This document shows positions 34,178-60,109 of a stretch of DNA of 64,000 bases, one piece after another. Source of the DNA: Rhizophagus irregularis (taxonomy: Eukaryota); assembly GCF_026210795.1 (NCBI RefSeq), contig NC_089431.1, positions 868,001 through 932,000 on the forward strand. The letters are read 5' to 3'. The notes under the pieces were generated by a model. The model did no database searches, had not been told where the DNA came from, and worked only from the letters and a program-made list of their open reading frames with translations. Every line of letters begins with the position of its first letter. Position 1 is the stretch's first letter. The position numbers and the translations under genes were made by a program.

Positions 34178-34933
34178 ATCAGTTCTATTTGCAGAATAAA
34201 TGAGACAAACTATATTTATACACGATTAACTGGTGAGTATAAAATTGTTTATTATTTTTATCTATTTTTCTTTCTGTATTATCTGACTTTTATATTTCAG
34301 TAACTGCCGTTCATTACCTTTATTGCCTTTGAATATTATATATACGGATATCAGAAATCTTGACCTATCATTTTTGGTTCAATATGCAATTTTTATAATT
34401 CGAACGAATTATCGGGAATTTGAATTTGGAAATTTTGTAAAAGTTTATTTATACAGTGAACCCGTTCACATAATTTTGATAAAAAGGGGCGTGTAACCAA
34501 CCAAATTGTATGATGTCTGACAAAATTAATAGCTAATCGTCACCGTAAATTGTGTCACGTTGTTGTACTTTTTGTGCCCAATGACTCATTGAATATTATA
34601 TCAATATTATTATTACTCCATGATGGGGTACCTAACGTGGTACCCGGTTTTTTTTATGCTTTGCCCCAACAATCGACTAAGTTACTAAGGGAGACGAAAA
34701 AAATACCTATTAAAAAAATAATTCCCATATCCGAAGGAAAGACGGGAAAACAATAAAAAAAAAAACATTTGAAACTTTTTATAATTTCTTTAAGGACTAT
34801 TAATCTAAAATAACTTCTTCAGTTTTATACTTGTTTATGCCACCTTTGAAAAAGTTTTTTGTTTCGTTGTAATAAGCTCAAAAACTTTAGTAAATTACAA
34901 ATACACTTAAACATCAGACTGCGCCACGCCAAG

Positions 34934-37900
34934 ATGACATTTCTACAGAACAGTACAATCAATCGAAAGTCGTTTCGTCACCGTAAGGTTGACAATAAGA
35001 AACCACTACGAATCTATACACCAGGTGAAATCAACGAAGATGACTGTATACCAGTCAGTAGAGCGGGAATAGAAATAGAGACAGGGGTAGAGAAGGAGGA
35101 GGAAGAGGTTCGTTTAACCGTTTCATTGTTAATAATGTACTATATAATTTTAAAAATTCAAAGAATAAATACTATAGTTTTCTTTAATGGAGTGAATAAA
35201 TTTCTCGTTCTTTATTAAAAAAAAATTGTCTTTTGAATAAGTGTTCTTTCTTTGTTATTGTTGCTGCGGCAAGATTATGTCATCAAAAAATAATCGTCAC
35301 ATGTATTCTTTAAAATTAAAAGAGAACGATCATATCCAAAAGATTTAGAGATTTTGATCTAATACGTGAATTTCAAGTTTTTACTCAATGACTCAAAATT
35401 TTCCTCTTTTTTTTTTTAAAAAAAACAAATTAATAATAGGAATGGCATTTAGTGAATGCATTAAAACTTCGTACAGAATCAATGGAAAAAGGAGCCACAG
35501 CTTCTGGAAAAGCCACGATTCCTGTACCAACGTCAAGTCGACGTATTTCATATTATGCTGATGTTTATCAGACACACAAATGGAAAAAACCTTCAACATA
35601 TGTTAAATTTTCTTTACCTGTTGAAGAATGTATAGGTTGTCTGTACTGTATGGACGAAAAAGATGATATATGGTTAGCGGAGCATAAACAAAAAAATAAT
35701 TCAACGTTAACTGAAGATCAATTTGAGGAAATAATGCAACACTTTGAAAATGTTGCAAAGAATAAACCTCAATTATTGGTTTGTAATAGTTATTTGAATC
35801 AAAAACGACATCCATTTTTTTTTTGTGACGTTTGATTCTTCATGTTGATCATTGCTCAAACCTAATTACTTCTTTCGTTATCATTCTTTCATCCTATAAC
35901 ACAATAGGCAAAGAAACAATTCCCATCTTGGCAAGATTGCGAAGCATGTCTTTCAGAATCGTTACTTGTCTTGAAAAGCGAAGCCGAAAAAGTGTATTCA
36001 TATTGGAAGAATAAACGTTGGGATCGGCTTAAACAATATCAAAAAGTCGGCCCATTAATGTTTGAAATAAAGGTTTGTTAGATCTTACATATAATTATGT
36101 AAATAAATGAATTTGATTAAAAATTGTTAAACCTTTTCTTTCTTTTAATTCCAGACACAAGAAGGTAAAGATGAAGAAGATCATCCATGGACCTGTTTCC
36201 GTCGTCGTGAACTTAAACCTATAAGAAGAACACGTCGCACAGAGACAGCATCATTTGATAAATTAAGGAAAATAAGGAAAGATATAAATTCTGGCCGTCA
36301 AATAATGGTCCATGTAACGATGAGAGAAAAAACAAAGAAACAGAAGATTGAATTAGATCGTAAAATTTTTGAGAAAGAATGTACCGCCAGAGAGCTACGA
36401 AAGAAGTTGGGTATTAGGAATGAAATAAGTCATGAGCAACCAAAGGTATATATATATTCATTTAATTTATTGGTTGATCAAGTATATTTATAAATTATTT
36501 AATCTGTTTTTTTCTCCTTGCAACTTAATAGAAGAGCCGAAAATCATCTTTGGCGGACTTATTAGGGTATGTTCACATTAAATACCTTTTAACGTTTTCT
36601 ATTATTATATTTACCTTCGAATTTCATCGCAATTAGTGTAACGAAGACAAAATCTGGTATCAAACTTTCTAAGAAAGATGACGAATATCCAATGACAGAT
36701 ATAACAGATGTAAGTTGATGTAATGATTTAATAATGTTTTTAATTTTAAGTAAAATTTGATAATTAATATACCTATGTTTTATTGTTTCTTGAAAAGTAT
36801 CCATACCTTGTTCAAAGGAAATCGCTTGCTGCTTCCTATTTCAGAAAATTTGATTCTCTCAAACCAACAGATCGAAATTCAATACAATGTACAGCCTTCA
36901 GAAGTCGATTTGGTAGAGGGGGTCGTAGAAGAAGGATTATCGATCGTCTTGACGTCTTTTCCTATCGACGCATACGAGAGACCAACGAAAGGTACAAGTA
37001 TGATTCAGATGGAATTGATGATGTTTTCAGTGACGACGAGTTGAACCAAGATGATGAAGAGAAGGAAGAAAATTACACAGAAAAGTATGAACTTTTAAAT
37101 AATTTTAAATGCGAAATAAATGATCGACGTTTAGAAATTCATGTGATTAAAATCAATTCATAAATTTTCTCTTTTATAGTATAATCCGGTTTCATTTGTT
37201 TAAAGAGGAGGATTATCAAAATCTTGGCGTTTATCGTCGGATACAAAAAGAAAAACAAAGTTCTCCTACGAAACAACAAAGCTTCGATGCTTTAACGGGA
37301 AACAATATACCTGCTCAAAATCCTCAACATACACCTTTAACTTTAACAAATCCAGAACAGCGAATAAATGAACTGCGTCTTGCGTCTCGTTCAAATACGG
37401 AATCTCGCACTGTCTCACAATTAGATGCTCGCGCGAATCAAGATTCTCGTCAAAAAATAGATTTGGGTAAATATTACTTTACTATAATGTAATAATAAGA
37501 ATTTTCTTTCCTCAAAGGCTAACATTAATTATTCAAACAGATCATCGCACAGGTGCTGACTCTCGAATCAATAATATGAGAAATAATGGACTAGATGCCC
37601 GTGCGAATGTTAATAATATATCGAATGTTGACTCACGTACATTTATCGATTCGCGTACTTATAATGGTTTGAATCGAAATCAAAGTGTCAATACTGAATC
37701 AAGTACGAGTCGAGATCCTCGTTTGAATTCTAATTCTCCATCAACACCACGATTAAATAGCGATTCTCGTACAGGTTCAAGACTAGTCAACAGTGTTAAT
37801 ACTGCAGATCCACGGGCACATAACGGTCTTATTTTAAGACCTACTGTGACGTTGAATCATCGCGAAAACATGACGAATCCATATAGACGCCCAATACCAA

Positions 37901-39463
37901 AAAATATTCGGATGCCAGATGATCCCAATAATAATTCTATCGGAGGTGTTACAAACGTTGTATCTGCTCTAAATGGGTTGACGCCTGCATCACTAGCTGT
38001 AGGATCAAACAATACAAGTATATCAGCCACCAGTTCACTTGCTAAAAATCCAATTACACAAATAAATTCTTCAGCAAGACCATTATCAAGTAATAACAAC
38101 ACAAATGGTCAAGGAAATGGCGATGGACTTACACGTACATTATCTAACCCAGGAATGATTACAAACAATGCGGGACAACTAGTAGGACAGATTTTAATGA
38201 GTTCTTCAGGTCAGATGTTAGATCCCAGTAAGATTAATGTGAACTCTGCAGGTCAATTAGAAGCACAAAAGATTAATACGGTTAAACAACAAAGAAATAG
38301 AGTACAGTTTACTCCAGAACAAATAAGCCAACTTTCTGATTCAAATCCAGCTTTTATGCAACAAATGCAAAAAATAATGTCTATGAAATCATCGTCGAAT
38401 CCTTCTACAAGCACTGTTACTCAACAAATAAATAATCAAAATAGTCAACGTCAAACTACAGTTCAAACTTCAAGGCAACAAAATATTACAGTGCCAAGTG
38501 TTGGATCAAACATACCTTCTAATTCCACTGTTCCACAAAACATTGTTCTTTCATCTGGGATGGTACAATCCCCTATGAGGCAGAATAACATAGTACAATC
38601 AAGTGGATCGAGCGGTTCAGTGCCTCAAAATTTTGCCCTTGCTAATGGGTTCAATATATCGCCATCATCTGGATCGTCAAATGTAAGACAAAATATTGTA
38701 CAATCAAATGGTGTATTGAGACAACAAAATGTTTCTATTGGTGTTAATGGATCACAAAACAATGTGAACGCTAACATATCTCTTGGCTCGCAGACGATCA
38801 ATGTGAATCCAAATGTCACAATTGGCACCAACGGTCCTCAACGATTCGTTCATCCAATTCATCAAAATGGTATAGTTAACATTAATAATATGGTACGTTT
38901 TTCTTTAATAGATGTATTAACGTTAACGATAAAATGGGATCTGTAGACTTAATTAACGAGATATAATAATTTTTTTTTTTTTGAAAAAAAAACAGCCCGG
39001 TGTTATTTCAACAAATGGACAATCAACTCCTATAAGAACCATCAATTTAGGAAATCGAAGCTATACACTTGGAGCAGCTAATAATATGGTTCAACTTAAC
39101 GGAATGAGACCAGGTTTAGCTAACATGGGGGTTAACCCTATTAATGCTAGACACCTTGGCACTTCAACAAATCTTCGACAGGTATCTACCGGCGCTGCTA
39201 TTCCAAACTTAACTTATCAGAATGGATTCAATGTAATAGCTAATAGTGGTGCTAACTTTGGACATACTAATTTGAACCAGATGGTGCCTATAATGAGTCA
39301 AAATGTGTTAAACGGTGCAATGTTAAATAATCTAATACTTCCAAGTCAAAGTCCAAGACAAAATAACGTAAGCCCATCAAGTGTATCGACTTCAAATGGT
39401 GGCAACAATTCTGTTGGAACACCTTCACCACAACCTCAAGCAGAACAAAGAACTGTTCGTTAG
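34934..39463 (+). CDS. EPL1: Enhancer of polycomb-like NuA4 subunit, multi-exon, with long N/Q/S-rich tail
   Basis: SFRHRKVDNKKPL, IETGVEKEEE, IPVP, YCMDEKDDIWL, HPWTCFRRRE..RRTRR and FRSRFGRGGR. Confidence 0.85.
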
Positions 39464-40829
39464 AGTGTTATGTATATACTTTTTTGGGGTGAAGGAATTA
39501 ATTTTAGCAAGAACTTTATATTAATATTTTCTTTCCAAAGATAATTAATTAGGGAAAATTTTTCCCTTCAATTGAAAAAAAAAATGAAAGGCTTGATTTT
39601 GATTATTCAGAGAATATTTTCAGAACCAGCAAGCAGTTCTTAATATAACACTCACCATATAAAAGGAAAAAAAAATGAATTAGTTTTTGGTGAGTAAGTT
39701 AATATAATTTGTAAATTGAGTTTTGCTTATGCAATTTTGCAAGAATACAAAATATTATCCTAAACATGCTATAAGCTAGCTGAAAGAGAACGCAGAGTGA
39801 TCAAAATGATATGAAGTTGGTTAGGTTGAATAGGGATTGATTATTATGTTACTTGCAAAGGATAATAGTTATATTTGCTTTAATTAGAAAATACCAACAA
39901 AAAATTGAAATCATATTATTTAAACCCGTAATATATAAATTTATATAATATGATTTCACAATGATTCTTATTATTATAATTTTTTTTTTCAGTCCATTGT
40001 GTGTATAAGTAAATAAATTTGTAAATTTTTTTTTCTTTATGTTATGATGAATCCTTTTTTTTTTTAATTTAGATAAAATACATTGTATATAGTTATATAG
40101 TATATAATTCAAAAATTTTTTTTTAATGAAAAAAATTTTTTACCTTGTTTCATTCCATTGTTATTTCATCCTTTTGATTTGTTCCATTGTAATTAAAAAA
40201 AAAAGAAAAAAAATCAATAATAATAATAATTATTATAATACTGTGTTTACTAATACAGAAATCAAAAAAAAAGAGTAAAAAACCGTTATTTAAAATTGAT
40301 TGATTTATATACAATTTTTTTTTAGGGCTTTAATTTTTTCCGTTTTTCGAAGAAGTAGGTCATTGTATCCACTTTCGAACAATAAAAATTTTTATAAATG
40401 GAATAAACTAAATGTGGTGTAACGGATATGATAAAATTACATTGTCCCAATATTTTGAACTTTTAACGTGTCACACTCTGTCAGTTTGCATTCATGTGAA
40501 TCGGGTATTCCGATAATATCATTTTTGTGATGAGAACTTTGATAAGAACTTAAAACATTTTATTGAAAGTTGACAAGAGAAAAAAAAAGGAAAAAAAAAA
40601 GAATTTCTAATTATCATTTTTTCAAAAAAAAAAAGAGAATTTCTAAAGTATCATTTTATCTGTTTCTAGAAAAAAAAAAAGAGTTTCTAAATTTATCATT
40701 TGATTTTAAAAAAAAAATTTCTAAGAAAAAAAGAGATCAATTGATCAATTCTATATATAACTTAAATTATTTATCTTATTTACTTAGATGATTTATCTAA
40801 GAAGATACCTTCTGGTTTTTTAATTTTTT

Positions 40830-42829
40830 TTACAATGGTATGCCATCAAGAAAAGCTTTATTGCCTTCTCTAGTAACAACAATTTGAACATTACCCAAAA
40901 TTCTTGAAACGAAACCTCCTTCACAATAAGCAAAATAAAATTCCCATTTCTTTTTGAAAATTTCGACATCATTTCGAGTCATATTGGGCCAACTTTTTAA
41001 CAAAGCAGGGTGAATGTGTTCATCAAATACTGAAAGAAATCTTTCACGCCACAAACGCAATGTACGCGCGTAATGAGGTCCAATGTTTTCAATATCATCA
41101 ACTATAAGGTTACCTTTTGAACCCTTGTTAATCGCTTCTACTAAGGTTGTCACACTTGGAACATGACATCCTAAAAAGTTGAGAAGTAAAAAAAGATTTT
41201 TTAAAAGACATTTTCATGTGAATGAACCAATTTTTCTTAAATTGTTCGAATCTTACCTGGGAAAATATATTTTCTTATAAAATCGACCTCTTTGCAATAT
41301 CTATCATATCTCGTTTCAGGCATAGTAATAACTTGAAATACACCAACACCATTTTTTTCGTTCAAAAATTTGTCACAACATTCAAAATACGTTTGAAGAT
41401 ATTCATAACCAACAGCTTCAATCATTTCAATACTAATGATTTTATCAAATTGATGAGAAGCAGGTAAATTACGATAGTCACATAACAAAACAGTTATACG
41501 ATCAGAAAATCCTGCATCTTCAATACGTTTTTCAGCGAGATTTTTTTGTTCAATTGAAAGAGTTAAGCTCGTAACACGGCATCCTGTTAGTCTTACGGCC
41601 TAGTATTAAAATGCAATTAGTAATACGAGAAATTAGTAGATATACTTTCTTTTGAAAAAAATAAATAATAAAAATACCAAATATTAAATACCTCGATAGC
41701 AAGAGAACCCCAACCAGTACCAATTTCCAAAACGTGATCATCTTTAGTGATTCTTGCTTTTTTGATCATCATTCTCAATTTTCTATATTGAGCTTCTTCT
41801 AAACTTTCCTCTTCATTTTCAAACACGGCACTGGAATAAGTCATGTCACTACTTAAGAAGGCAGCAAACATTTCATTGCTTATATCATAGTGGGCGGAAA
41901 TATTGTTAATGGCGTTGGAAATTGTATTTGCAAAGCGAAGGTTCATAACATAGTTTATAGAACTGAAAACGTATGAAGGAACTGTTGTAAGTTCGTCGAG
42001 GTGAGACCTATTCGCTACGAAAATCTGAAGAAAGGAAGTTGATTCAATATCCCCAAAAAATCAAGATAAAAAACCTAACAATTTATAAATTTATAAATAC
42101 CTTAATAAGAGTTACCAAGTCGTCGCATGTTACATCTCCTAGCATATACGCTTCAGCGTATCCCTATTAATTAACATTAGAAAAATAAGGTGACAATGAA
42201 AAATGGTTAGTATTTGTCAAATAAAGTTGGACAAATATATGATCGAATACTTTGTTGTGCAGATCTGAAATCATGTGAAATAAATATATGCTAAACAAAA
42301 AAAAAATATTGTACAACAAAAATAAAGAATACTTCGATGTGTAATACATCTTGTCAAACTGTGTAATATTAAAGCGAAATTAATTTAGAAATGATCATAT
42401 AACTTACCAAATCACCTAATATTAACAAACGAACCCAAAAAGAGTCGTTTATGATTTTGATTTCGCTCTTTAATTTCGAATCTTTAGGGCCAAATTCATA
42501 AATACAATCTTTACTAAGTACGCGAAGATGACCGACGTCAATTCGTGACATCAATGAAAGAACAGTATTTCGAGCTAATTAATACCATAATAACAAACAA
42601 TAATAGTAATTTTTAAATTAGTAAAAAAGACTGTTGAAAAGCCATCTTCGAAAATTGAAGAATTTTAGAAAGAAAAAAAAAAAAATTTAAAAATTTTTTA
42701 GTTGAATATACCAAAATGGAGTAAAGGCTCCCATGAGTTTGAAACGACGACCTCTTTTGCATATTGAAAGTAAGAGTCGACAGTCGAAATAACTTTGCTT
42801 GATGTATGATTTTTTTTTATATATGACAT
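40830..42829 (-). CDS. Cyclopropane-fatty-acid-synthase family SAM methyltransferase (UfaM/Cfa-like), multi-exon
   Basis: NISAHYDISNEMF...DMTYSSA, VLEIGTGWG, SIEMIEAVG, FIRKYIFPG, HYARTLRLW and WEFYFAYCEGGF; ATG at 42829. Confidence 0.92.
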
Positions 42830-43903
42830 GTTTAATTAATGTTTCTTTCGTAAGAGAGGAAACTCTTAGCAGAAAGACTGAAAGGTAAATTTGATGGTAT
42901 TTATATATGCACAGATGTAATTATTATGTATTGTTTAAAAGTAAGTTCGAAAAAATTTTAAGACGATGTACTACATTGTATTTCAGTTCATTTTTCGATT
43001 ATACCAAGTTTGTGAAATGAATGAGCTAATCTCTTATATCTTTGTATCCATTACAAAGATTATAAATCAAAATAGTATATACGAGTTACTTTTTGGTAAA
43101 TATGGTAAATATGATTTATGCAGAAATTTGTTTATGTTTATATTTTAATAAAATTGAAACGGTTTCATTTGTAACACGAAACACCGGATAAATCATTAAC
43201 CACCACTCTCAAATCGTATGACAAATTGATGATAAAGTTCCATAAATGTGATACAACGCGCGAAACGCGTTAAATTAATATATCTTATACATTTCTCATT
43301 ATCAAATTAAGAAACGATTGCATGAACGAGTAAAATTTAGAAAGAAGAATAACAATGATAACCTTTAATACTCGGTGAGAATGTCAATAATAGACTAGTT
43401 GATTATTTTTTTTTAATAGAAGATAGAGGCTATTAACTCAATAGATTTAATTAATATTATCTAGTAAATACTCCAAGCAATATATGCCAGATATGCCGGT
43501 AACCTCATGGTAATTGCCGACTGGTGTAATGGTATGTAGATCCAAATTATTTTAATAATTGATAAACCAGGATTAAGGTTAACGAAAACCATAATTAGCT
43601 ATGATTTTTAATTATTGGGAAAGAGAAACATTTTAATTTTTCCAAATTAAGTGTCATCGGAAAAAAAATAATGAGATAAGGTTACAAATAATGAATTCTC
43701 GGGATACTCGGAATTGCGGGTATCGCGCGGACAATAATTACTCGTATTTCCCAATTATGATTTATGACAAAGTAATATAAATATGACAGAATAATATAAA
43801 CAATGCTGTTGTATAACACTACCGTAATTTTCATATAAGCTCACCGCAGCTTTTATTTCTGGAAATCTATCTTTCTCGTTTTATTACTGATAAGGAGGAA
43901 AAA

Positions 43904-46809
43904 ATGTCAAAGATAGATATATTTTTATATGTTGTTATCGCTATTAGTACATTATTTTATATATTTAAAGTACCATTCTTTATAAATAATATATTTGAAA
44001 TATTATGTTTAATTATTATTATTATATTTTATTATATTATAAATAAAATATTAGAATCATCATTAATTTCATTAAATCAAGTTAATACCCGACATAAAAT
44101 ATATTTTTGTAAAACTTATCATTCTAGATTTTGGCCTGTTAAACATTCTTTTAAATATCCTGTATTATTTGTCGGAGTTGATTTAGATATATTAGAACAA
44201 CAACAATATAAAAAAGATGGTCATAGTTTGTAAGAATTTTATTTATTGTTTGATATACTTGTATTCTTTTTTTCGAATATTTTGCTTTTAATTAACTTTA
44301 TTTTCTGGATAGATTTGATATCGGATATAATAATAGTTCAATTATATTTAATATAAATGATGATGATTATCTTGGTAAAATAAATTCCGGAGATGATAAT
44401 TTAGAAAATCCGTATATACAAAAACCAAAAAATCAAATTAAATCAATCAAAGAAAAATTATTATGGCATATTAAACAACATGTAAGTTTTATTATTAATC
44501 TGCTTATCCTTCACTTCGATGATTATTGTTAAATAATTTTATGTGTAATTGTTTTTTAATTAGAATATCCCGACAGATGACTTAAGTAGATTTGAATTAG
44601 TTACGATGCCGAGATTTTTAGGATATGCGTTTAACCCGGCTAGTTTTCATTATTGTTACAGCAGAAATAATGAACTTAAAGTTGTAATATTAGAAATTAA
44701 TAATACTTTTGGAGAAAAACATTTACATGTTTTAAGTAGAGATACTGTTACTGATCAAGAATCACGGAACGGGTAAGATTCTTTCTTAATAATTAATGGA
44801 TGTAATTTAATATCTAAATTTAAAATAACTTTTATCTTTTTAATAGTTATGATATGAGTTTTACCATGAAACGAGCGTTTCATGTATCCCCATTTAATGA
44901 TCGTTTAGGGACTTACAAAATGCTTTGTAAAGATCCATCATCGGGTTATTTAGATATGAGGATTGTAATGTACGCAGGTCAAGATAATAAATCACAACTG
45001 AAAAAGAAAATGGTTGCTACAGTATCAGGACCTTCATATATATTATCAATGAATAGCTTATTATATGCTATAATAAGATATCCTTTTGATATATTTTTGA
45101 CATTTCCAAGAATATTAAAAGAAGCATATAAGTTACATTATAGCAAAAAGTTAGGGATTTATCATAGACCAATTCCTATTGAAGGGACTGTTGTTAAACT
45201 TGAACCAAATTCGATTGAATTGTATGTATTCTTATTTTTCAGTTTAAAAGTTTTTAATTTTGAACTTAATATATATCTAATCTTTTTCATTTTAAATAGA
45301 CACGCTCAAGAAATTATTACAAGTTATTTACGTTACTTAATAGAAAGTTCGTTAGAATCAACCTATATTACGATAAATTTACCTGACAAGAACAAATTAC
45401 CAATAATAATTCGTCCATCAAATCTTCCGATAATATCATTCTCAAACACTATAACAATAAATCTTCATGATTATTCATTTTTTACAAATTTATTAATAAA
45501 TCAAAATATTTATAGAGCTTTATTAATAAGTTATTTTGAAAAATCTTGGGATTGTGACGAATTAGGATTATTATTAAAATTATTTTTTAACAATAGATTA
45601 GATATAGAAAATAAAGTAGATAATAAGAAGGAACCTTTACATAGAGATTATAAAATTAAATTAAGTAATTTTGAAAATAGAATATCAATATTAAGAAGAT
45701 GGTATTGGAAAAAATCATTCAATAATCAAGAAAGTTCGGGTGAAAGAGCTAAAAAAGAGTTTGATCAACTATTACAAAAAATGTGGCCTCCCATAGGAGT
45801 AGATAGAGATTTTATTGCTTCTATAGTACAAAATGATGTTTGTTTTGATATTAGATTGGATGCTACCGTACGTATTTTTTAAAATTTTTTTTTTCTTTCC
45901 CTTTTTTAAGCTAATGTTAAGGTAAATTCTTTTTAGATAAATTCACATGAGGAAGTAGCAGTAGCGTTGAGAGATTTATTTGCAATAAATAGCGAAGGGA
46001 ATACAATAGCATTATTTGGTTATACACATCTTTACATGTTATCACCATTTACATTTCCTTCTTCAGCAACAATATCAAATATTTCACCAATCATAGCGTC
46101 AAAACTTCACTTACTTCCATTTCCACCAAGATATCTTGCCTATGAAAATAAAGAACCACTAAAACATCCAATAGATAAATTTATACATTCAAGCAAATTA
46201 TTTACTAATAAAGATAAATTAAAATATACTTGGATGATGTTATTAATGGTTTTGGGTTATAGTTTTGATGCTGGGTTTTGGCAAATGATAACGGGATTTA
46301 TTGAAGGTCCTAGAGGTAATCTTTATTTTGCAGAAAAATGGTTATGGGAAGGTATCGTGGATCTATTGAAAAGGTATGAAAGAAAGGATAAGGGTGAAGA
46401 AGAAGATAAGGATGAAGTCAAGAATGAGGATGAGGATGAGGATGAAGAACATTGGGCTGAATGTGAGAGTGATATTGAAAGTGATAATAGTATCAGTATT
46501 AAGAGTTCAAATGAAGAGAGAAAGAAACAAGTATTTGATGGCTGGGAGGTTGTTTATGAAAGGATAGGTATGTAGTATTATTTTTTTTTTCCGTCATATT
46601 TTCTTTTTTCTCAGCTAATTTGTTTATTTCATTTTTAAAAAGGTAATAATGATAAATTGCAAAAAGTTAAACCAACGCCTACCCCATCTTTACCATCACC
46701 ATCAACTAAACCTACAGAGGTTAATCCTATGATAGAAGAAGATAAACAACAAAGATTATGGCTATTTACAAAAATTTTTAGAGAAGTGATATTATTGAGA
46801 ACAGATTAA
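43904..46809 (+). CDS. DUF1365-family protein (UfaO-like) with long C-terminal extension, multi-exon
   Basis: HSRFWPVKHSFKYPV, TMPRFLGYAFNPASFHYCY, LEINNTFGEKH and KRAFHVSPFN. Confidence 0.85.
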
Positions 46810-47107
46810 AAATAATATTTTATAGAATTTTAAATTAATTAATTTAGTTTAATGAGTGAAATTTTAATAGATAAATAGATAAAATACTCAATGACTGCTT
46901 AATTATAAAGATTTATATTATGAAATTACGATAATTACTCATAAAATGTAATACAACTTTATAGCAATAAAAATTTTGTTTCATTAATTAATTTATTCAT
47001 CAAAAAATCTTAATACAAAATTACAAATTACAATATACTATGCTAATACAAATTACAGATGTTATTATTTTATATTACACAATTAAATAAATGTTCTTTG
47101 TCTAATT

Positions 47108-49151
47108 TTAAAGCCTTAAAACATTATCATTATCAGTATTATCATTTTTTTTACCGCTACATTTACCTTTTGCTTGTTTTTGCAGAAGACGTCGTTTCTT
47201 TCTCTGTCTTCTATTTTCTTTTGGTTTAACCTTCAAGTGAGAAGAAACATTTCCCTCTAATCTTTCCATAACCATATCCATACCACCATGATTAAAGATA
47301 TTCATCAAAGTTTCATTATAAGTATGTGCAGAACCAGAATCTTTAGCTATTTTCTTTATCTTAAACTTATTTACAATGCTATCCAATTCACCAGGTCCTG
47401 ATTCAGGATTATGTTTCATAGCGAGATTCGTAATGGCTAATTTTTGTATAGCATCTGCCATCATACTTTTATATTGCTTATCAGATTCAGGAGAAAGATC
47501 GGGGATTGGCCATTCTTCATGAGGCACATGTCTACGTATACTATATTCTGTTGTCTCTATTTCATTATTGCTTGATGGATTCGGATCGATTTCATTTGAA
47601 ATAATTGTGGTTGTTGTTTGTGAATCTGATTCAACTAAAACTTCTACAGGATGTTTTCCTGTATTTGATGATGTTGAAGCAACTGTTTGTACTGCCTGAT
47701 TATCAGAAACTCCATAAAGTGTTGAAAAATTAGTGTTTAATGTGGGAAGTATAGGGCTATTAAATGTCTGTTTACTCCCTTGAGGTGATACGGAAAAGTT
47801 GGAACTTCCGTTTGTCGATTGAGTTATTGAATTAATAAAGCCTCCTTGATTAAATACAAACTTGTTCAAATGTTCCGTTATAGATAACGAAGGTGTTTTA
47901 GTATCTATTTTGTATTCAGGTAATTGTACCGCAGAATTCAAAATTTTCTCAAGATCTACTTTGGGCCCATTTGAGGATTTATTTTTTTTGACTTTTTTAT
48001 TCTTCGTCTTTTTACATTTTATTGCGGGTAAATTGCTGCCAATTTGAGAATTTACAATTGACATTTTTTCTTCACTAAGAGATTTAGCAGTAGAGTGAAA
48101 TTTATCACTATGAAAAGTGGTCCTATATAACCCTTGCCGTCCTATTTCTAAAATATGTGTAAATAATTTTATTTACATAAATATCATTATAAACAACATA
48201 ATCACCTTACCTGCACTTTTTAGCTTTTCATAATATTCAGCTGCTAATGTCTCCAAATTAATAAAATCCGTCCCATGAACACCTGCTAATAACAGAAATA
48301 ATATAAAATTTAAAAAAAAAAGAAAAATTAATTTACGAATCAAATAATTTTATTTCGAAAATTTTACCCGAATTGAGTCTTCTCGACAAAAAGTTACTTA
48401 ATAGTTCAAGTAATACACAAGGATTATTATGATAAGATTGTAAATGTGCACTGTCTTCTTGGAACATTTCTTGATATTTATTTGAAAAATCAATTACAAT
48501 ATCAAAAATATCAAATGTATAATTATATAAGTTAAAAAATTTAATCACTTTTTCAACATAATTAGGTTCTCTTGCTTGTTGCTCTTTTGGTATATTATTT
48601 ACCACAGGTTCAAGTCCGGTATCAGTAGTCCAAGACTTTAATTGATTCGAAACAAATGTCGCAGGTTGTGGAATGTCATAATCAATTTCCATATCAACGA
48701 GTTCATCATCCGAATCATCTATTGAAACCGTAGCATTGTGAGAATCTTCTTCTCGTTCTTTGTTTTTACCTTTGTCATACACCAAGGATTGATTACTGGC
48801 ACCAAATGAATCAGATTCGTTTAATTGTACGGTATTCATATTAACAACAGAAGAAATGGTACCAAAGTCGAGATCAGTACTATATTCTCGTTCTTTACCT
48901 TTATCTTTATTAAACGCAACAAGTCTATTATCAGTGCTCTTCAATTCAAACTCTACTTCAGAATCTGAAGACGAAAGCACGATAATTTCATTATCAGGGA
49001 AAGTGTTATTATTGGAATTCACAGGAAAAGAAGGAACATTATTTCCCAATTCCTTTTGTGAACTTTCATACGCTTTCGGCTGATTATTACATAGTTGTGA
49101 ATAAAAGAACTTTGAGGTAGAAGAACTAGAGCTTCCTGGTGAAAAATCCAT
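47108..49151 (-). CDS. Hypothetical, largely disordered protein, multi-exon
   Basis: ORFs 48333-49151 and 47108-48064 are linked by short GT-AG exons near 48210-48285. S/N/D-rich with a basic C-terminus. Confidence 0.6.
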
Positions 49152-49384
49152 AGAAAAATTTCTTATTATCCTAAGGCATGTGTTTTTTTGACCATCTTAT
49201 AAAAAATATATATGATAACGTGATTTGATTAAGCCATATTTTTGGGGACGAAAATATGATTTTCCGGATTTTCATAAATTTGAACCGTGTGTAAATTGAA
49301 TGCAGCTTAAAGGGTCGCGCAATTTTATATAAATTGACAGTGAATTACCCCGAACTAAATTTTTTTTTTTTTTCTGCTCAAAAA

Positions 49385-51263
49385 ATGTCTCAAGAGCAAA
49401 GTAAAAGAATAGCAATAATTGGAAGTGGATGCGCTGGATTGGGAGCGGCATGGTTGTTATCGGAACATTCTCCGCATAATGTTACTATTTATGAGCAAAA
49501 TGATTATTTGGGAGGACATACTCATACGGTTGATTTTACAGTTCCTTCTACAAAGTCCTCTAATTCTCCGCTTACAACGCCGGTCGACACCGGATTCATT
49601 GTATTTAATCATGTTACGTATCCAAACCTTATTAAGTTTCTTCAACATAAAAATGTTGAATACATAGGTTCTGACATGGGTTTTAGCGTATCAAGAAACA
49701 AAGGAGAATTTGAATGGGCGGGAAAAAATATATTTACAGTCTTTGGGCAACCAGAGAATTTATTGAATTTGAATATGTGGAAAACTGTTTTTGATATTAT
49801 GAAATTTAATTTTCACGCAACTGATTTATTAGAATTGGAAGATGATCATCCCGAAAAAAAAATGAAACTGGGAGAATATTTGGATTTACATGGATACTCT
49901 TCAGCATTTAGGGATAATTATCTTTTGGTAATGTAATTTATGTAACTATTAATTTATGTTTGATGAAGATTCTAATTTAACAAACACGTGATTAATTAGC
50001 CGATGACTGCGGCGATTTGGTCTACTCCGCCGGACAAGTGTGCGCTTGACTTTCCCGCATTGACGTTAATACAATTTATGCATAATCATTTTTTCCTCCA
50101 AGTAATGAATCGCGTTCAATGGCTTACTATAAAAAATGGAAGGTTAGAAATTTGAAAACGTGCACAAATCGCGTTCATTATTAATTTAAATTGATTATTA
50201 TTTATTTATTTATTTTTAGTCGCAAATATGTGGAAACGATCGTTCCACATATTCATAGTGTACGACTTTCAACAAAAGTAACATCAATCACACGTAAATC
50301 ATCAAATCCTTCGGATCCTTCTTCACCACCAATCATTATTATTACAGATAGCAATGGGGGACGCGAAGAGTTCGATCATGTAATTTTCGCCACTCATGCT
50401 GATCAAGCTATACAAATTTTGGGTGACCAAGCTACCGATGACGAAAAGCGTATTTTGGGAAAAGTTCGTTTTAATAAAAATCGCGCCGTGTTACACTCCG
50501 ATCTTTCGGTAAGAGAAATTAAATTTAATTGATTTTTATTTTTATTTTTTATTCTTTTTTTTTTATTATTTTAAATTGATAAAATTATAATTGTACGAAT
50601 AGTTAATGCCAAAGCGCCGTTTCGCGTTCTCTGCTTGGAACTATATTACCAAATCTACTGAAAATTCTCTTAACACTGATCAAGTTTCTTTGTAAGATTT
50701 ATCGTTATTTTGTATAAAGTTTATTATGTTAATGGAAAATTATAATTGAAATAAAAAAAAACTATATATATTTTTTTTATAGGACTTATGACATGAACAT
50801 TTTACAATCAATCGATGAATCAGTTTATGGGCCGGTTCTTGTAACTTTGAACCCTCTTTACGAACCCGATCCATCAAAAGTCGTAGGTTCGTGGTCATAT
50901 GACCATCCGTTATACACACCAGAAACAATTGCAGCACAAGCTGAATTGCGTACTATCCAAAATCTTCCAAATCTTGCTACAACATTTGCAGGAGCCTGGA
51001 CAAAATATGGATTTCACGAAGATGGTTTTACTTCGGGTTTAAAGATTGCCAATGAATTTTTGGGTGCTTCATCACCATTTGGAATAATTGATGCCACTCA
51101 TATTAGAGGAAGACAAGCTGAATTAAATTTAACTGAGAAAGTACAAAAAAGACTTTGGATTTGGTTTGAAATGTGGGTGGAAATGTTATGCGTTATATTA
51201 ACTATAACGAAAGTTTATTACGAAATGGCCTACAAATGGACTAATCAAAAGAAGAAAGATTAA
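49385..51263 (+). CDS. FAD-dependent oxidoreductase, COG2907/amine-oxidase-like (UfaD-like), multi-exon
   Basis: IAIIGSGCAGL Rossmann motif, LGGHTHT, VDTGFIVFN..TYPNL, PMTAAIWS, ATHADQA, SAWNY and GAWTKYGFHEDG. Confidence 0.9.
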
Positions 51264-51778
51264 CTTAATAAGTAATATATGACATGAACAAAAGATTTTC
51301 TTAAAACTAATTTATTTTATAATTGATACTGTTAAATTATAAAAGATATAGTCACATCTTTTCTTTGATAAATTTTTTTATTTTATTTTATTCTGTAAGA
51401 GTGAAATCCGGACTAACTTTGTGTAGGAAAAATACTAGAGGTAATAAAAAGTGGTACTAAATACAAAGTAAGAATAACTAACTAAAGTAAGTGTTCTCCA
51501 TGTAAGGGGACTTTCTTTGATAAATAGAGTTAATAAATTATACCCGATTTTCCATAAGAAACTCAATCACGTGTATGTATATCACGTGATTGCAATCATT
51601 TGATATACTTATTTTTTTTACTTTTTCAATGAATAAATAAATGAGAAACTCTTTCCGACGATCGTAAAATACCAAAAATTCACAGAAAAAATTTTCGTTA
51701 AAAAACATATTTCTTTATAGACAAGTACCACTTTTTTCACCAGTTTTGGTCTCTACGTTCTTCTCGGAACATTATCAT

Positions 51779-54013
51779 ATGAGTTTTAATATCGGAAAAA
51801 AATTTTCAAAAAAATTCCTTAAAAATATAGAAAAATCTCATCGTTCGGTGACTAACGAAGAAGACATATACTTTACATATTCTTCACCAAATACAGTTAA
51901 AAATATGTCTAACAGTAAACCCAATAATAACACTGTAACCAGTATCGATAAAGTATCTACGGACTGTCCTATGGAAGAAGTAATAGCTACCTCTTCAACT
52001 CATGACCTTTCTCACAGCGAAATTGAACTCACATCACGTGACTCTTTAAAAAATGATACTCACACGCAAACACCAATCAACGATAATTTGACTAATATGG
52101 AAGAAGATCCCTCAGAACCTAACCCAGATAAAGGAAAATCACCGGAATCACAAACAGCCACACAAACAAACTTGCCAAATGCGATTCCAATGACCGTGCT
52201 AACTGATATTTTTACACAAACATCACAAGCTTCTAACAAAGCACACAAAGGATTTATTCCCAGAGATAGTTTTAAACCTGAACTCTCTAACAACGAAATC
52301 ATTAACTTACTAAAAACGGCATTTATCCGTGACAGTAACGCCTTTAAATTTGAATCTAATACAACTTCCACATACAAATATTTCACTATATACTTTAGAA
52401 CACGTGACTCGCTTAACTACTACATAGAAAAGAGTCCCAACAACCTTAAACAAGTTAAAATATACGAATTAACCAATGAAGCTATCAACACATTACTGGA
52501 TAAAAAATTCGCTGATTTGGACTCAGCAGTCATAAAAATCATGGACATACCTTATAATTACGACACAACAATGCTTATCAAACACCTCGCTATTAAAACC
52601 GGCAGCAACATCATAGACCAAAAAGAGCTCAAAAAGCCACCAAGAAAATTACCTAACCGCAACAATCGCGGACGCCCAATTTTCATCAAACCTGCATACA
52701 AACAACTAATCGTACGCTTCGATAAACAATCTGCCTATGACTATTTCATGAAAGAAAACTATTGGAGCCTAGAAATAGAAAATTTCGTAGTAAGAATTTT
52801 ACCAGGCAATCAAAACGATCCCGAATTTCAAAAACGCACCAGTAAATATTTTAAAATTACTGGACTACCGCTTAACACCACTGCTACGGATCTTGATCCA
52901 CTTATCAAACACATTTATGGACGTACTTGTACGTTTACACAAACTACTCGATACTCAACCATGAAAAATGCCTACATATACGTTTCACCAGAGAATTATC
53001 CTGATAACGCAACGGGAGGTGCATCATCACAATTCGCTAACCACACCATCTTCATCATCCCAGGGCACATATCAGCCAAAACATGCAACACTTGTGGATC
53101 ACCGTTACACATTTCTCAAAACTGTGACGATAAGAACTTCAAAACAACAAGTGACAACCGTAAACTCTATAACAAAAGATTCATTGATAGAAAAGAAGAA
53201 AAAATCACAATCCACGAAAACACCAGAAATAGATACAACCACGTGATTTCCCTTAACTCCAACAAAAATTCAAATTCATCTCAAACAAATAACAAACGCT
53301 CATCACCACAAACAGATAACCGCTATAAAAAACTACAACCTAATAATTTACAATACCCCCGTCAAACAAGACACCCGTACAACAAAACACACAACATAAA
53401 TGATATTAACAACTGGGACGAACCCTCCATGTCTACCCCCATAACCTGCATCAAAAATACGTCAAATGATGAGACAGACAAAAGAATTACGGAACTTGAA
53501 AAACAAGTCCAAAGTCTCCTAAAAAATATTAAATCTTTACAAGAAAGTAAAATTACAACGGATAAATCGATCGCGGACATCCATCACAACACTAACCTAA
53601 TGAACACATCACTCACGAAAGTGAACATACGACTAGACAAATACGACACAATCATTGAACATCTCACCACTAACATCAATTTACTTAGCAAGAAAGAAAT
53701 TTCATCCACCCAAGAACGTCCTCGCAAAATATCCAAAAAAGCTACACCATATGATCAAACTTCATATAGATCAACCAAATCCAAATATAACCTTAGAAAT
53801 AACAAAGAATACAACAATTCAGCCGATGATAGTGAATTCGTTCCGGCAACAGAAGATGACACTGACATCCCTGATGACAATGCTATGTCGGATGGTGCCG
53901 TCTTTGAAGGCATAATTGACAAAACACTAGACGAACCCGTGAAAAATGACACTTTCACCGTTAAATCTTATAACCCATTGAACCTCCTCCCGAGCTTCAA
54001 CGCGACACGTTAA
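51779..54013 (+). CDS. LINE ORF1 (RRM-like regions, CCHC knuckle, coiled coil)
   Basis: CNTCGSPLHISQNC knuckle and C-terminal coiled coil; first ATG at 51779. Confidence 0.85.
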   Translation: MSFNIGKKFSKKFLKNIEKSHRSVTNEEDIYFTYSSPNTVKNMSNSKPNNNTVTSIDKVSTDCPMEEVIATSSTHDLSHSEIELTSRDSLKNDTHTQTPINDNLTNMEEDPSEPNPDKGKSPESQTATQTNLPNAIPMTVLTDIFTQTSQASNKAHKGFIPRDSFKPELSNNEIINLLKTAFIRDSNAFKFESNTTSTYKYFTIYFRTRDSLNYYIEKSPNNLKQVKIYELTNEAINTLLDKKFADLDSAVIKIMDIPYNYDTTMLIKHLAIKTGSNIIDQKELKKPPRKLPNRNNRGRPIFIKPAYKQLIVRFDKQSAYDYFMKENYWSLEIENFVVRILPGNQNDPEFQKRTSKYFKITGLPLNTTATDLDPLIKHIYGRTCTFTQTTRYSTMKNAYIYVSPENYPDNATGGASSQFANHTIFIIPGHISAKTCNTCGSPLHISQNCDDKNFKTTSDNRKLYNKRFIDRKEEKITIHENTRNRYNHVISLNSNKNSNSSQTNNKRSSPQTDNRYKKLQPNNLQYPRQTRHPYNKTHNINDINNWDEPSMSTPITCIKNTSNDETDKRITELEKQVQSLLKNIKSLQESKITTDKSIADIHHNTNLMNTSLTKVNIRLDKYDTIIEHLTTNINLLSKKEISSTQERPRKISKKATPYDQTSYRSTKSKYNLRNNKEYNNSADDSEFVPATEDDTDIPDDNAMSDGAVFEGIIDKTLDEPVKNDTFTVKSYNPLNLLPSFNATR

Positions 54014-54128
54014 TTGTTGAAAATAACTCCTCAACAAATATTTGGACTCACTTACGATTTCTCCCTTTTTTGATTTTAACGTTTAAATTGTTTTCTACAC
54101 ATTGTTTTTATTAAAATTATTTTTTTTT

Positions 54129-57100
54129 ATGGAATACACCAATTTTACTAACATGGTTGGCGTCGAAAACCAACCTTCATTTCAAGTACCTATTAATTCT
54201 TTACCTTCTTCTTCAAAAAATATAGAAAAAACACAAAAAAATTCAAATAATCAAAATACCAAAAACAGATATAACAATAACAATAACAACGACAACAGTC
54301 ACCACAGCTCAGGATCTACATCATATACTCCTGATGTAAACGACGTACCTAACGAAGAACATATTACTAATTTACACGTCGTTAACACCGATAATAATTA
54401 TTTTATAGATTACCTCAAAATTGGAACCATCAATATTCAAGGGGGCTACAAAACCAAATTAATTGATATTATCAATTATTTTGATACACATAACTTTAAC
54501 ATCCTCAACCTAACAGAAACACAATATTGCCACAAACATGAAAATAACAAATTAGTCGAAAGACATCCTCATCCGACTAATAAAAATTTATCTATTTACA
54601 TAATTTTAGACGCTAATGGAGATAACAGGGGCTCTGGCGTAGGTATAATGCTTACTAGTACTTTATACCAACACGTCCATCAAATTCGTTTTCACAAAGG
54701 TCGCGTCTTAAATATCGAATTGGGCTTTAAACGTGACTATAAATTGAACATTACATGCCTTTATCTACCTGCGGGAAGAGACAAACATACCAATATTATT
54801 AAAAAAGAGTGCAACCAATTCATTGACCAACTATTTAGAACACAAAATACTAATGACGATAATCACAAATTTTACAACCTTATTATGGGGGATCTCAATT
54901 GCTACCCAAAAGAAAAAAATAATCTTAATCACCATATAATTCAGATGGCAAAATTAAAAGGCTTCAAAGACATGGCAAAATTCCATGCAGAAAACCAAAC
55001 TCCAGATATAACTAGAACCACACACAGAATAGATTATATATTTGGCAATAATAACATTTTAAACGCATCAATTCATACTTTTGCACAAAAAATCCCACCA
55101 TCACATTTCACTAGCGATCATAAAGCAGTGATTACTTTATTACAAAACGACCTTTTCAAACGCTCTCGACATCATCAAGGTAACAGACGAAATGAGCAAA
55201 AAGAGAAACCAAACTATTCACTAATGAATGATGATTTATGGGAAAATTACAAATCTCATTCGAAAACATATTTTAAACATCGTTTTCAATACATCGATTT
55301 AGATAATATTTCGACACAAGATGAATTGGACCATATTTGGAATATATTTGAACATAGTTTACATAACATCAAAAAGTCAACTATTCCTCAAAAGAAAATA
55401 ACACCCCAAGAACACCATCATTTATACCCTTTACACATTCGCCAATTGAACCGACACGTGATTACTTTATATAAAACGAAACAATTCCTAAATTTAAAAC
55501 ACATTTATATCAGGAATAAAATAGAAATACCAACAGACAAATCTTTGCTTGTCTCATCTATTCCCGACTCAATGTGGACTTCATATTTTAAAAACTGGAA
55601 AGTTCATCGTGATCATATACAAAAAATAGCACACTCAATGGATCACGATATAATATTAAATAATTTTATCACACAAGAAGATTTCTTTGCACAGAGAACA
55701 GAAATCTACAAATTATATAACCATTTAAAACTAAAAAGAAATGATGAATTATCACAATGGAAAACTGAACGTATTGATTATTTTATTAATCAAAGAAATT
55801 TTGATTTATCAACTAATCAAACAAAAATGATTAATTCAATACTTCAAAGAAAACCTAGAAAAATTACATTGGATCGATTAATTTTCAAAGATAATAATAA
55901 TGATACCATATTTACTAATAATCCACAAATTATACAAAAAGAAGCTATTAAACATTATCAAAATATAGGTAAACATGATAATCAATCGACGTACCGCTCT
56001 ATTGACGATTTACCTCTACCGTGGCGTACGATATATGATCCGGCCAACCACCATTCCAATAGTGATTGTTGGGATACGCTTCAACAACAAATTGATATTT
56101 CCGATGTATTAGCCATCTTAAAAAATTCTCCTACGAATAAAGCACCTGGTCCTTCTCAAATTACTTATGAAGACTTGAAGCACCTATATAAAGATGTCTT
56201 GATATTACTTACCCAGATCTTCAACTTATGTATCCATTTAGATACGATACCCACAAAATGGTGTGATGCTCTGCTATTCCCAATACCGAAACCACATGAC
56301 TGGGATAGTAAACTTACGAATACAAGACCTATCACCCTTTTGGAAACGACGAGAAAATTGATGGTCTCCGTTTTCTCTCAAAGATTAAATCAATCATTAG
56401 CGAAATACAACATCTTACAATTCAACAATCGTGCGGGTGTTTTGGGACAATCTTGTTTAGAACCACTGTTCCAAATACAGCATTCGATCGAACACGCACG
56501 TATTTATAAGAAACCACTATGGATTGCCATACAAGATTTATCAAAGGCTTATGATAGAGTCGATATTACATTATTACGATTAGCTCTGCAACGTATTAAA
56601 ATTCCGGAAAAGATAATTACTTTTTTCATTAATTTATTTTCTAACCGATATAACTCCATCATCCTACCTAATGGAAACCTAGCATCATATAAGGTCCTAC
56701 AGGGTATAGACCAAGGCGAAGTTGTTTCACCGCTTTTATGGAACATATATTACGACCCCCTGTTTTATCACATTAATCAACAATCACATCTTGCTTACAA
56801 ATGTGATACTACGAAAATTAAAAATATTTATCACAAAGACTCTGACATTATTCATAATTTTGAATTATCTTTGGTCAGATACCTCGATGACACCACCTGG
56901 TTTAGTCCTTCTCTAGAAATACTCGAAACTAAATTAGATATCGCACACTCATTTTATGAATTAGCAAAAATTAAAGTGAACATCGACAAATACAAAATCC
57001 TCACCAACCAACGATTAGGTAATGATAGAAAAACTGTACAACTCACCATCAATGGACAAAACACAGATGTTAACATTGTTTCTAAATATAAAGGCACAAG

Positions 57101-60100: not shown

Positions 60101-60109
60101 AATACTTAG
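54129..60109 (+). CDS. LINE ORF2: APE endonuclease, reverse transcriptase, RNase H and Zn finger; 1-nt frameshift at ~58632
   Basis: APE motifs NIQG/ETQ/GDLN/RIDY/SDH. RT motifs KAPGP, RPITLL, DLSKAYD, QGEVVSP, YLDD. RNase H motifs YSDGS/E/TDSQ/VKGH/ADALAK. C-terminal CTEC...HIGLC. Confidence 0.92.

What the first reader, a model, noticed from the sequence alone, without database searches (positions are those of the whole stretch)
40830..51263. Candidate eukaryotic furan/modified fatty-acid gene cluster (Cfa/UfaM + DUF1365/UfaO + FAD oxidoreductase/UfaD)
Seen: three intron-containing genes lie within ~10.5 kb, a CFA-family methyltransferase, a DUF1365 protein and a COG2907-type flavoprotein. 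Established: in Rhodobacter sphaeroides the same families (UfaM, UfaO, UfaD; sigmaE/ChrR singlet-oxygen regulon) convert cis-vaccenic acyl chains into methylated furan fatty acids. Plant cyclopropane synthases fuse a related FAD domain to the CFA domain. Inference: this is an operon-like lipid-tailoring cluster making furan or other methyl-branched antioxidant fatty acids. If the host is an AM fungus this is notable, because these fungi lack cytosolic FAS, import plant fatty acids and are rich in delta-11 monoenes, a plausible substrate. I cannot tell how widespread or already noted this linkage is in fungi.
Basis: partly seen in the sequence, partly recalled or inferred. Interest (0 to 1): 0.92.

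Follow-up and report, generated by a model that had tools for sequence, protein, structure and literature searches.

The report
Fungal furan-fatty-acid gene trio
A root-symbiotic fungus carries three neighbouring, spliced genes that likely turn a membrane fatty acid into an antioxidant furan lipid as bacteria do, but most other fungi examined keep the same genes apart, and the oxygenase-like gene carries a leftover lipid-binding piece of the methyltransferase.

Summary
Confirmed with corrections. The window is Rhizophagus irregularis DNA. It holds intact genes for a Cfa/UfaM-type methyltransferase, a DUF1365 (UfaO-type) protein and a UfaD-type flavoprotein; RNA reads show them spliced. An unrelated fourth gene lies between the last two. 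All three are adjacent by gene number in four Glomeraceae species, but unlinked in 10 of 10 other Glomeromycotina and in 38 of 38 fungal metagenome loci. The genes themselves occur widely across fungi, so the set is not a mycorrhizal speciality. New here: the DUF1365 protein also carries the Cfa lipid-binding N-terminal domain. It is colinear with bacterial DUF1365-Cfa fusions, and slime-mould homologs keep a decayed catalytic half. The flavoprotein groups with other bacteria, so the trio is not one transferred operon. Best reading (0.6): methylation, desaturation, then furan-ring formation, predicted to yield 9M3 from the fungus's 16:1 delta-11. No product was measured, and the H266Q signature shared with UfaM also occurs in cyclopropane-making plant enzymes. 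This scan noted bacterial versions before; no fungal one was found.

The parts
40830..42829 (-). Cfa/UfaM-type SAM-dependent fatty-acyl methyltransferase, 454 aa. Exons 42829-42712, 42574-42408, 42163-42101, 42024-41692, 41599-41257, 41170-40830. SAM motif intact; E288 and Y375 match E. coli E239 and Y317; Q316 replaces E. coli H266.
42830..43903 (.). 1,074-bp spacer between the divergent start codons of the methyltransferase and DUF1365 genes; candidate shared promoter (inferred)
   Evidence: methyltransferase reads fall off near 42860; one assembled contig reaches 43464 on the DUF1365 side
43904..46809 (+). UfaO-type gene, 778 aa. Exons 43904-43946, 44055-44229, 44313-44481, 44564-44772, 44847-45221, 45300-45867, 45937-46567, 46643-46809; the first intron is not confirmed by reads.
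44099..45171 (+). DUF1365 domain (residues 30-307); predicted nitrobindin-like beta-barrel; keeps the family-invariant H37, R39, E173, N176, T177, E180, S213 and Y222
   Evidence: (Z about 10, rmsd 3.9-4.1, 133-139 aligned)
45211..45594 (+). Cfa-type N-terminal lipid-binding domain inside the DUF1365 protein (residues about 321-422)
   Evidence: (5z9o 4-93: Z 7.6, rmsd 2.6, 84 aligned; 6bqc 14-89: Z 7.0, rmsd 1.9, 70 aligned)
45595..46809 (+). C-terminal tail of the DUF1365 protein (residues 423-778), conserved in Glomeromycotina; no detectable methyltransferase similarity; low-confidence model
47108..49151 (-). Intervening spliced gene, 632 aa, Ser/Asn-rich, no family assigned; probably unrelated
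49385..51263 (+). UfaD-type FAD oxidoreductase, 514 aa. Exons 49385-49927, 50000-50142, 50220-50508, 50603-50691, 50783-51263; one hydrophobic segment near the C-terminus (479-499).

Best explanation
These three intact, spliced Rhizophagus irregularis genes are fungal relatives of bacterial ufaM, ufaO and ufaD and likely make a methylated furan fatty acid on membrane lipids, which would act as an oxidant scavenger. Inferred steps, by analogy with R. sphaeroides: the methyltransferase adds a SAM-derived methyl at C11 of a delta-11 cis-monoene and shifts the double bond; the flavoprotein desaturates this to the 10,12-diene; the DUF1365 barrel, possibly heme-bound, inserts O2 to close the furan ring. 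The DUF1365 protein's own Cfa-type lipid-binding domain (shown by sequence and predicted fold) would anchor it to the bilayer or pull out the substrate lipid (inferred). With the fungus's 16:1 delta-11 the product is predicted to be 9M3; with 18:1 delta-11, 9M5. The genes are old and widespread in fungi (shown). The methyltransferase and DUF1365 genes probably descend from a fused DUF1365-Cfa ancestor by duplication and reciprocal domain loss (inferred), and the flavoprotein has a different bacterial affinity (tree). The three-gene linkage is a Glomeraceae trait in the data seen.
For: Same three families as the pathway shown sufficient in R. sphaeroides and R. palustris (PMC7380195, part 2 of 7 plus passages). 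Of 42 non-fungal loci found by methyltransferase patterns alone, 28 have DUF1365 next door and 25 have both partners. The R. irregularis enzyme has E285, A289 and Q316 where E. coli has G236, H240 and H266, as do 89 of 89 stand-alone bacterial relatives. The Halomonas UfaM shown to make 11-methyl-12-18:1 has the same letters, read by eye from its supplement, while its Cfa does not. The DUF1365 domain keeps the family's invariant residues, and a preprint lists DUF1365 among predicted heme binders (10.64898/2025.12.11.692455, one passage). Pleurotus contains 9D5 and 9M5 (PMC9883336, passages). In Chlamydomonas, CFA1, CFA2 and a DUF1365 gene are co-induced by singlet oxygen (PMC4067076, passages). 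AM fungi make 16:1 delta-11 and lack FAS-I (PMC10629195, passages). Fusion origin: BLASTP runs colinearly over residues 29-422 against a bacterial fusion, across its junction (E 2e-41). A profile built only from stand-alone bacterial Cfa N-domains scores residues 310-430 at 28.2 bits versus at most 6.2 in 1000 shuffles. Four dictyostelid-type homologs align over 638 columns with fusions, with decayed SAM and catalytic motifs. The nearest bacterial rows in the DUF1365 tree are all fused forms, and the fungal methyltransferases sit in a 30-row set with 13 fusions (SH-aLRT 95).
Against: No lipid or enzyme data for any fungal member. H266Q is not diagnostic: cotton CPS1 and CPS2 carry it, have the same FAD domain fused on, and make cyclopropanes (PMC3132707, passages). 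The R. sphaeroides and R. palustris proteins were not in my trees, and alphaproteobacterial rows fall outside the fungal neighbourhood for both methyltransferase and DUF1365. Deep tree support is moderate (84/92 and 83/66); the methyltransferase tree is a quick search, and the fused set was partly sought with a fusion as query. Linkage is absent in 10 of 10 non-Glomeraceae Glomeromycotina (from gene numbers and contig lengths; several assemblies are fragmented) and in 38 of 38 fungal metagenome loci. Read depth differs between the genes and shows nothing about co-regulation. In a Fusarium light-response table no UfaM-type or DUF1365 row was found (Pfam labels only).
Confidence: 0.6

Rival explanations
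1. The methyltransferase is a plant-type cyclopropane synthase, and the flavoprotein and DUF1365 protein assist it or convert the ring further (for example to a cyclopropene); no furan is made.
For: Cotton CPS1/2 share H266Q and C139S with this enzyme (S181) and make cyclopropanes; removing their FAD domain lowers output by about 70%. Algal FAD-Cfa fusions lie near the fungal rows in one tree. Fungal homologs are annotated as cyclopropane synthases.
Against: The only activity reported for DUF1365 in the papers I read is furan-ring formation from a methyl-diene. The fungal annotation rests on similarity; a review says the function is not known (PMC10282164, passage). A tested UfaM has the same residues.
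Confidence: 0.22
2. The pathway makes another methyl-branched or oxygenated lipid, for instance a signalling lipid or a product on a non-phospholipid carrier; the extra domains of the fungal DUF1365 protein would redirect the substrate.
For: The fungal DUF1365 protein has about 470 extra residues, of which about 350 have no assigned fold. Coprinopsis cfs1, a likely ortholog, is needed for fruiting-body initiation and is light-induced. The closest solved relative of the flavoprotein is LkcE, an amine oxidase of different chemistry (E 3e-33).
Against: All three catalytic domains keep family-invariant residues, and the extra domain that can be assigned is a phospholipid-binding one.
Confidence: 0.13
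3. Whatever the enzymes make, the linkage itself is incidental: a relic of the duplication plus later rearrangement, kept by ordinary synteny in one family, with no co-regulation. This rival concerns the cluster, not the chemistry.
For: An unrelated gene interrupts the trio (two in Funneliformis). Other AM lineages keep the genes unlinked. Read depth is uneven.
Against: The flavoprotein has a separate ancestry, so its place within four loci of its two partners is unlikely by chance. Calcarisporiella, far outside Glomeraceae, has methyltransferase and DUF1365 two gene numbers apart and a flavoprotein on the same 1.24-Mb contig, 342 accessions away.
Confidence: 0.4

Closest known systems
UfaM/UfaD/UfaO furan fatty acid pathway (R. 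sphaeroides RSP2144, RSP1091, RSP1090; R. palustris RPA2569-2571; Lemke et al. 2020, PMC7380195)
   Same: Same three families; the methyltransferase signature matches a tested UfaM; invariant DUF1365 residues are kept.
   Different: Eukaryotic spliced genes, head-to-head and interrupted rather than an operon; the UfaO-type protein is 778 aa with a Cfa lipid-binding domain and a tail instead of about 250-280 aa; activity is untested; nearest bacterial relatives of two of the genes are not alphaproteobacterial.
Bacterial DUF1365-Cfa fusion proteins (P0310 and 15 more loci: Thermodesulfobacteriota, Lentisphaerota/PVC, Vulcanimicrobiota, Bdellovibrionota and others)
   Same: Colinear DUF1365 plus Cfa N-terminal domain; nearest bacterial rows in the DUF1365 tree and frequent neighbours in the methyltransferase trees.
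   Different: The fungal DUF1365 protein lacks the catalytic half, and the fungal methyltransferase lacks DUF1365; flavoproteins beside the bacterial fusions do not group with the fungal one.
Plant and algal FAD-Cfa fusions with stand-alone DUF1365 (Arabidopsis AtUFAMD1 and AtUFAO1, PMC10940516; cotton GhCPS1-3, PMC3132707; Chlamydomonas CFA1, PMC4067076)
   Same: Same three domains in a eukaryote; H266Q.
   Different: Plants fuse the flavoprotein to the methyltransferase; fungi keep these apart and attach a Cfa piece to DUF1365. Cotton CPS1/2 make cyclopropanes.
Coprinopsis cinerea Cfs1
   Same: Proteins named CFS1-like by their sources (Lentinula, Mycena) fall in the same fungal clade.
   Different: The C. 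cinerea protein itself was not compared; its product is unknown; no link to DUF1365 or UfaD was found in the passages read.
E. coli Cfa (b1661; PDB 6BQC)
   Same: Two-domain fold, SAM motif, E239 and Y317 equivalents.
   Different: H266 is Q, G236 is E and H240 is A; below the NCBIfam cut-off; outside the ufa-type group in the trees.

Membership tests
UfaM/UfaD/UfaO furan fatty acid pathway | Cfa-family methyltransferase, DUF1365 protein and UfaD-type flavoprotein all present and intact | tested here: met
UfaM/UfaD/UfaO furan fatty acid pathway | Methyltransferase groups with those of ufaD-ufaO-linked operons, not with E. coli Cfa | tested here: met
   (profile scores 195-437 for the ufa-type group, nearly all above E. 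coli's 224)
UfaM/UfaD/UfaO furan fatty acid pathway | Direct orthology to the tested R. sphaeroides and R. palustris proteins | tested here: inconclusive
   Those sequences could not be fetched; alphaproteobacterial stand-ins lie outside the fungal neighbourhood for methyltransferase and DUF1365 and inside a shared 57-row side for the flavoprotein
UfaM/UfaD/UfaO furan fatty acid pathway | Makes 11-methyl-12-trans monoene, then the 10,12-diene, then the furan with O2 | not testable with these tools
   needs expression and GC-MS
UfaM/UfaD/UfaO furan fatty acid pathway | Co-induction by singlet oxygen or related stress | not tested
   only three runs of one study were laid
E. coli-type Cfa | Bicarbonate ligands E239, H266, Y317 | tested here: not met
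   H266 is Q316; ligands as stated in PMC11387697 and PMC3132707
E. coli-type Cfa | NCBIfam PRK11705 cut-off | tested here: not met
   228 bits versus 400
Plant-type cyclopropane synthase | N-terminal FAD oxidase domain fused to the methyltransferase | tested here: not met
   separate genes 6.5 kb apart on opposite strands
Plant-type cyclopropane synthase | H266Q substitution | tested here: met
Bacterial DUF1365-Cfa fusion | DUF1365 followed in frame by the Cfa N-terminal domain | tested here: met
Bacterial DUF1365-Cfa fusion | Intact catalytic SAM domain behind it | tested here: not met
   tail scores -0.5 bits against a catalytic-domain profile, not above shuffles; no CMAS hit
Conserved fungal metabolic gene cluster | Linkage kept across distant fungi | tested here: not met
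   adjacent in 4 Glomeraceae species, partial evidence in 3 more and in Calcarisporiella; 0 of 10 other Glomeromycotina; 0 of 38 metagenome loci
Fungal sphingolipid C9-methyltransferase (also Pfam CMAS) | Orthology to the C9-methyltransferase clade | not tested
   no reference sequence in hand; placement among ufa-type enzymes makes it unlikely (inference)

The most novel reading that the evidence does not exclude
Fungi make furan fatty acids themselves by a three-enzyme route older than the fungal radiation. Its oxygenase is a heme barrel that carries its own lipid-extracting domain, left over from an ancient UfaO-UfaM fusion. The mushroom developmental gene cfs1 is the first step of this route. 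Glomeraceae assembled the three genes into one locus and convert their signature 16:1 delta-11, made from plant-supplied palmitate, into the antioxidant 9M3.
Probability: 0.3. Interest if true: 0.78.

Novelty: new variant of a known kind. Interest (0 to 1): 0.52.

Why it matters
Furan fatty acids are measured in mushrooms, but I found no paper naming the fungal genes that make them. Searches: DUF1365 alone gave 8 papers, none with a fungal title (five seen in passages, three by listing only); UfaD/UfaO gave three relevant papers among the 40 of 302 listed. Most subscription papers are outside the library, and Lemke et al. already said homologs exist in eukaryotes. If right, this names a testable three-gene route, predicts a specific lipid (9M3) in a major crop symbiont, gives a candidate product for the unexplained fruiting gene cfs1, and explains the architecture of fungal DUF1365 proteins. 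It is not a new kind of chemistry.

Tried and rejected
No whole genome is held, so paralogs and a FufM-type gene could not be sought. hhalign of fungal DUF1365 against fungal methyltransferases gave only E 0.03; Foldseek on the low-confidence full model gave nothing at E <= 0.001; the Atlas had no usable hit for the DUF1365 tail or the middle gene. My first idea, that the whole fungal tail is a decayed methyltransferase, was not supported: only the N-terminal domain is detectable, and only in 15 of 141 non-fusion hits at iE < 1e-3 with a bacterial profile. The idea that all three genes came from one operon was rejected by the flavoprotein tree. A pan-fungal cluster was rejected (positive control: 278 of 278 queries hit the window; 22 loci had at least 3 kb upstream, 10 had about 10 kb on both sides; two pairs are near-duplicates). 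The careful methyltransferase tree did not finish and the quick tree is used. Thinning: 24 rows were dropped from the careful DUF1365 tree and the set was cut to 80 rows; low-scoring second methyltransferases were left out. A predicted complex of methyltransferase and DUF1365 protein gave no verdict (not folded). The original cfs1 paper and Lemke 2014 were not held. Coprinopsis expression papers had no matching annotation terms. Ustilago lists a light-induced cfa-like gene, but I could not match its partners. No listed holder run was on record as RNA; raw-read runs of the same species label were laid instead. A motif scan of the spacer showed nothing I could interpret. Supplements of the bioRxiv preprint were not seen and may bear on the heme claim.
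Full report
What is there. The window is AT-rich eukaryotic DNA from Rhizophagus irregularis: exon searches return that species at 99-100% identity, and my spliced models equal deposited proteins letter for letter. Three intact genes lie in the finding: a 454-aa Cfa-family methyltransferase (minus, 42829-40830), a 778-aa DUF1365 protein (plus, 43904-46809) and a 514-aa flavoprotein (plus, 49385-51263). The first two are head-to-head across 1,074 bp. A fourth spliced gene of 632 aa with no family hit lies between the last two. PolyA reads from three runs of one study, and two assembled runs, show all four genes spliced as modelled: 5 of 5 methyltransferase introns, 6 of 7 DUF1365 introns, and 2 of 4 flavoprotein introns among the listed joints. 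The first DUF1365 intron is unconfirmed.

How far the linkage goes. No fungal assemblies could be fetched, so I used gene numbers and contig lengths. All three genes are within five numbers in R. irregularis (several assemblies), R. diaphanus, Funneliformis caledonium (5130, 5129, 5126) and F. geosporum (13564, 13565, 13568). Two of the three share a contig in R. clarus, Glomus cerebriforme and F. mosseae. In 10 of 10 other Glomeromycotina with at least two genes in hand (two Gigaspora, two Diversispora, two Ambispora, Geosiphon, Acaulospora, Entrophospora, Paraglomus) they lie on different contigs. Some of these assemblies are fragmented, but in Geosiphon and both Gigaspora the scaffolds are 138 kb to 1.26 Mb. 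Of 38 fungal methyltransferase loci from metagenomes, found with an ascomycete alignment, none has either partner in its flanks; 10 have about 10 kb on both sides. One outlier: Calcarisporiella has methyltransferase and DUF1365 two numbers apart and a flavoprotein on the same 1.24-Mb contig at unknown distance. The genes themselves reach from early-diverging fungi to Dikarya and form one fungal clade in each tree.

Which kind of methyltransferase. It falls below the E. coli-type NCBIfam cut-off. Of 42 non-fungal loci found by methyltransferase patterns alone, 28 have DUF1365 adjacent and 25 have both partners; three of the 42 are eukaryotic, alga-like FAD-Cfa loci. E. coli H266, a bicarbonate ligand (PMC11387697 and PMC3132707, passages), is Q in 26 of 26 fungal, 15 of 16 fused (one truncated), 89 of 89 stand-alone bacterial and 3 of 3 algal rows. 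A Halomonas UfaM shown to make 11-methyl-12-18:1 has the same letters, read by eye from its supplement (PMC12089945, passages and supplement 1). But cotton CPS1/2 also have H266Q and make cyclopropanes, so sequence cannot settle the product.

The addition: a split fusion. The DUF1365 protein is three times the length of the domain. Residues 29-422 align in one colinear block with a 696-aa bacterial DUF1365-Cfa fusion, across its junction (E 2e-41; profile-profile E 4e-76 ending at residue 422). A profile made only from stand-alone bacterial Cfa N-domains scores residues 310-430 at 28.2 bits against at most 6.2 in 1000 shuffles. The AlphaFold model is poor overall (mean pLDDT 54) but mostly 60-83 over this part. 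There it matches the N-terminal domains of Lactobacillus and E. coli Cfa (Z 7.6 and 7.0, rmsd 2.6 and 1.9) and sterol carrier protein (Z 6.0); such Z values alone are only suggestive. A confident model of a bacterial fusion shows the same order of elements. In E. coli Cfa this domain binds one acyl chain and the membrane. Sixteen of 122 bacterial-type loci are true fusions. Homologs from Dictyostelium and Polysphondylium, with two unnamed relatives, align over 638 columns with the fusions and keep a decayed SAM motif and no catalytic glutamate. The fungal tail beyond residue 422 shows no such trace. In the DUF1365 tree, fungi (100/99) and dictyostelids (100/100) sit among fused forms only, with moderate support (84/92, 83/66). 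Fungal methyltransferases lie in a 56-row set with 15 of 16 fusions (FastTree 98) and in a 30-row set with 13 of 22 fusions (quick IQ-TREE 95). The simplest reading is duplication of a fused gene and reciprocal loss; this is inference, and the sampling favoured fusions. The fungal flavoproteins instead group with algal and Pseudomonadota rows (57 rows, FastTree 100), away from those next to fusions, so the trio is not a single transferred operon.

Likely mechanism. In R. sphaeroides the three enzymes turn cis-vaccenate into 11Me-12t-18:1, then 11Me-10t,12t-18:2, then 9M5, with O2 as the oxygen source (PMC7380195, part 2 of 7 and passages). The fungal DUF1365 domain keeps the invariant residues and is predicted to be a nitrobindin-like barrel (Z about 10), which fits a preprint's listing of DUF1365 among predicted heme binders. 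AM fungi lack FAS-I and make 16:1 delta-11 (PMC10629195); the same chemistry on that chain gives 9M3 (my inference; the structure is listed in PMC9883336). Furan acids are measured in Pleurotus. Arabidopsis homologs sit on lipid droplets (PMC10940516, passages), and Chlamydomonas induces CFA and DUF1365 genes under singlet oxygen. Coprinopsis cfs1 is light-induced and needed for fruiting (PMC10282164, PMC8805025 and PMC12230235, passages). I put the furan route at 0.6, plant-type cyclopropane chemistry at 0.22 and another product at 0.13. Separately, I give 0.4 to the linkage being incidental.

Novelty. The pathway is known, and eukaryotic homologs were already noted by its discoverers and in plants and algae. 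In the library searched I found no paper that assigns the fungal genes, the Glomeraceae linkage or the Cfa-derived domain of fungal DUF1365 proteins. Earlier notes of this scan describe bacterial ufa islands only. Verdict: real, a new variant of a known kind, interest 0.52.

Noticed in passing
window 51668-60106: A LINE-like retroelement (781-aa ORF, then an ORF with reverse transcriptase and an overlapping frame with RNase H) begins about 400 bp after the flavoprotein stop.
   Followed up: no
window 1543-5474 and 11797-12606: Mobile-element pieces: aspartyl protease and integrase ORFs on opposite strands, and a Tc1/mariner-type DDE transposase.
   Followed up: no
window 34850-39463: Enhancer-of-polycomb-like (EPL1) gene, whose downstream ORFs end about 1.4 kb from the methyltransferase stop; transcripts of the two approach each other near 40000-40800.
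   Followed up: no
window 16220-20058: Two tandem, related intron-poor ORFs (557 and 409 aa) that share a similar hydrophobic N-terminal region; no family assigned above cut-off.
   Followed up: no
proteins P0417, P0424, P0432, P0443: Dictyostelid DUF1365 proteins carry a full-length but decayed Cfa half, a likely pseudoenzyme fusion.
   Followed up: partly
L047:8636-12067, L074:2033-5833, L041:8297-11348, L056:5365-7758: Other fusions of the same parts: alga-like FAD-Cfa genes and a bacterial FAD-DUF1365 fusion; all three pairwise combinations occur.
   Followed up: partly
L082-L103 (genome contigs): Many DUF1365-Cfa fusions are in sulfate reducers and other presumed anaerobes, although UfaD and UfaO need O2 in Rhodobacter.
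   Followed up: no
protein P0284: One R. irregularis annotation runs the flavoprotein on into 400 further residues (908 aa), probably a gene-calling merge.
   Followed up: no
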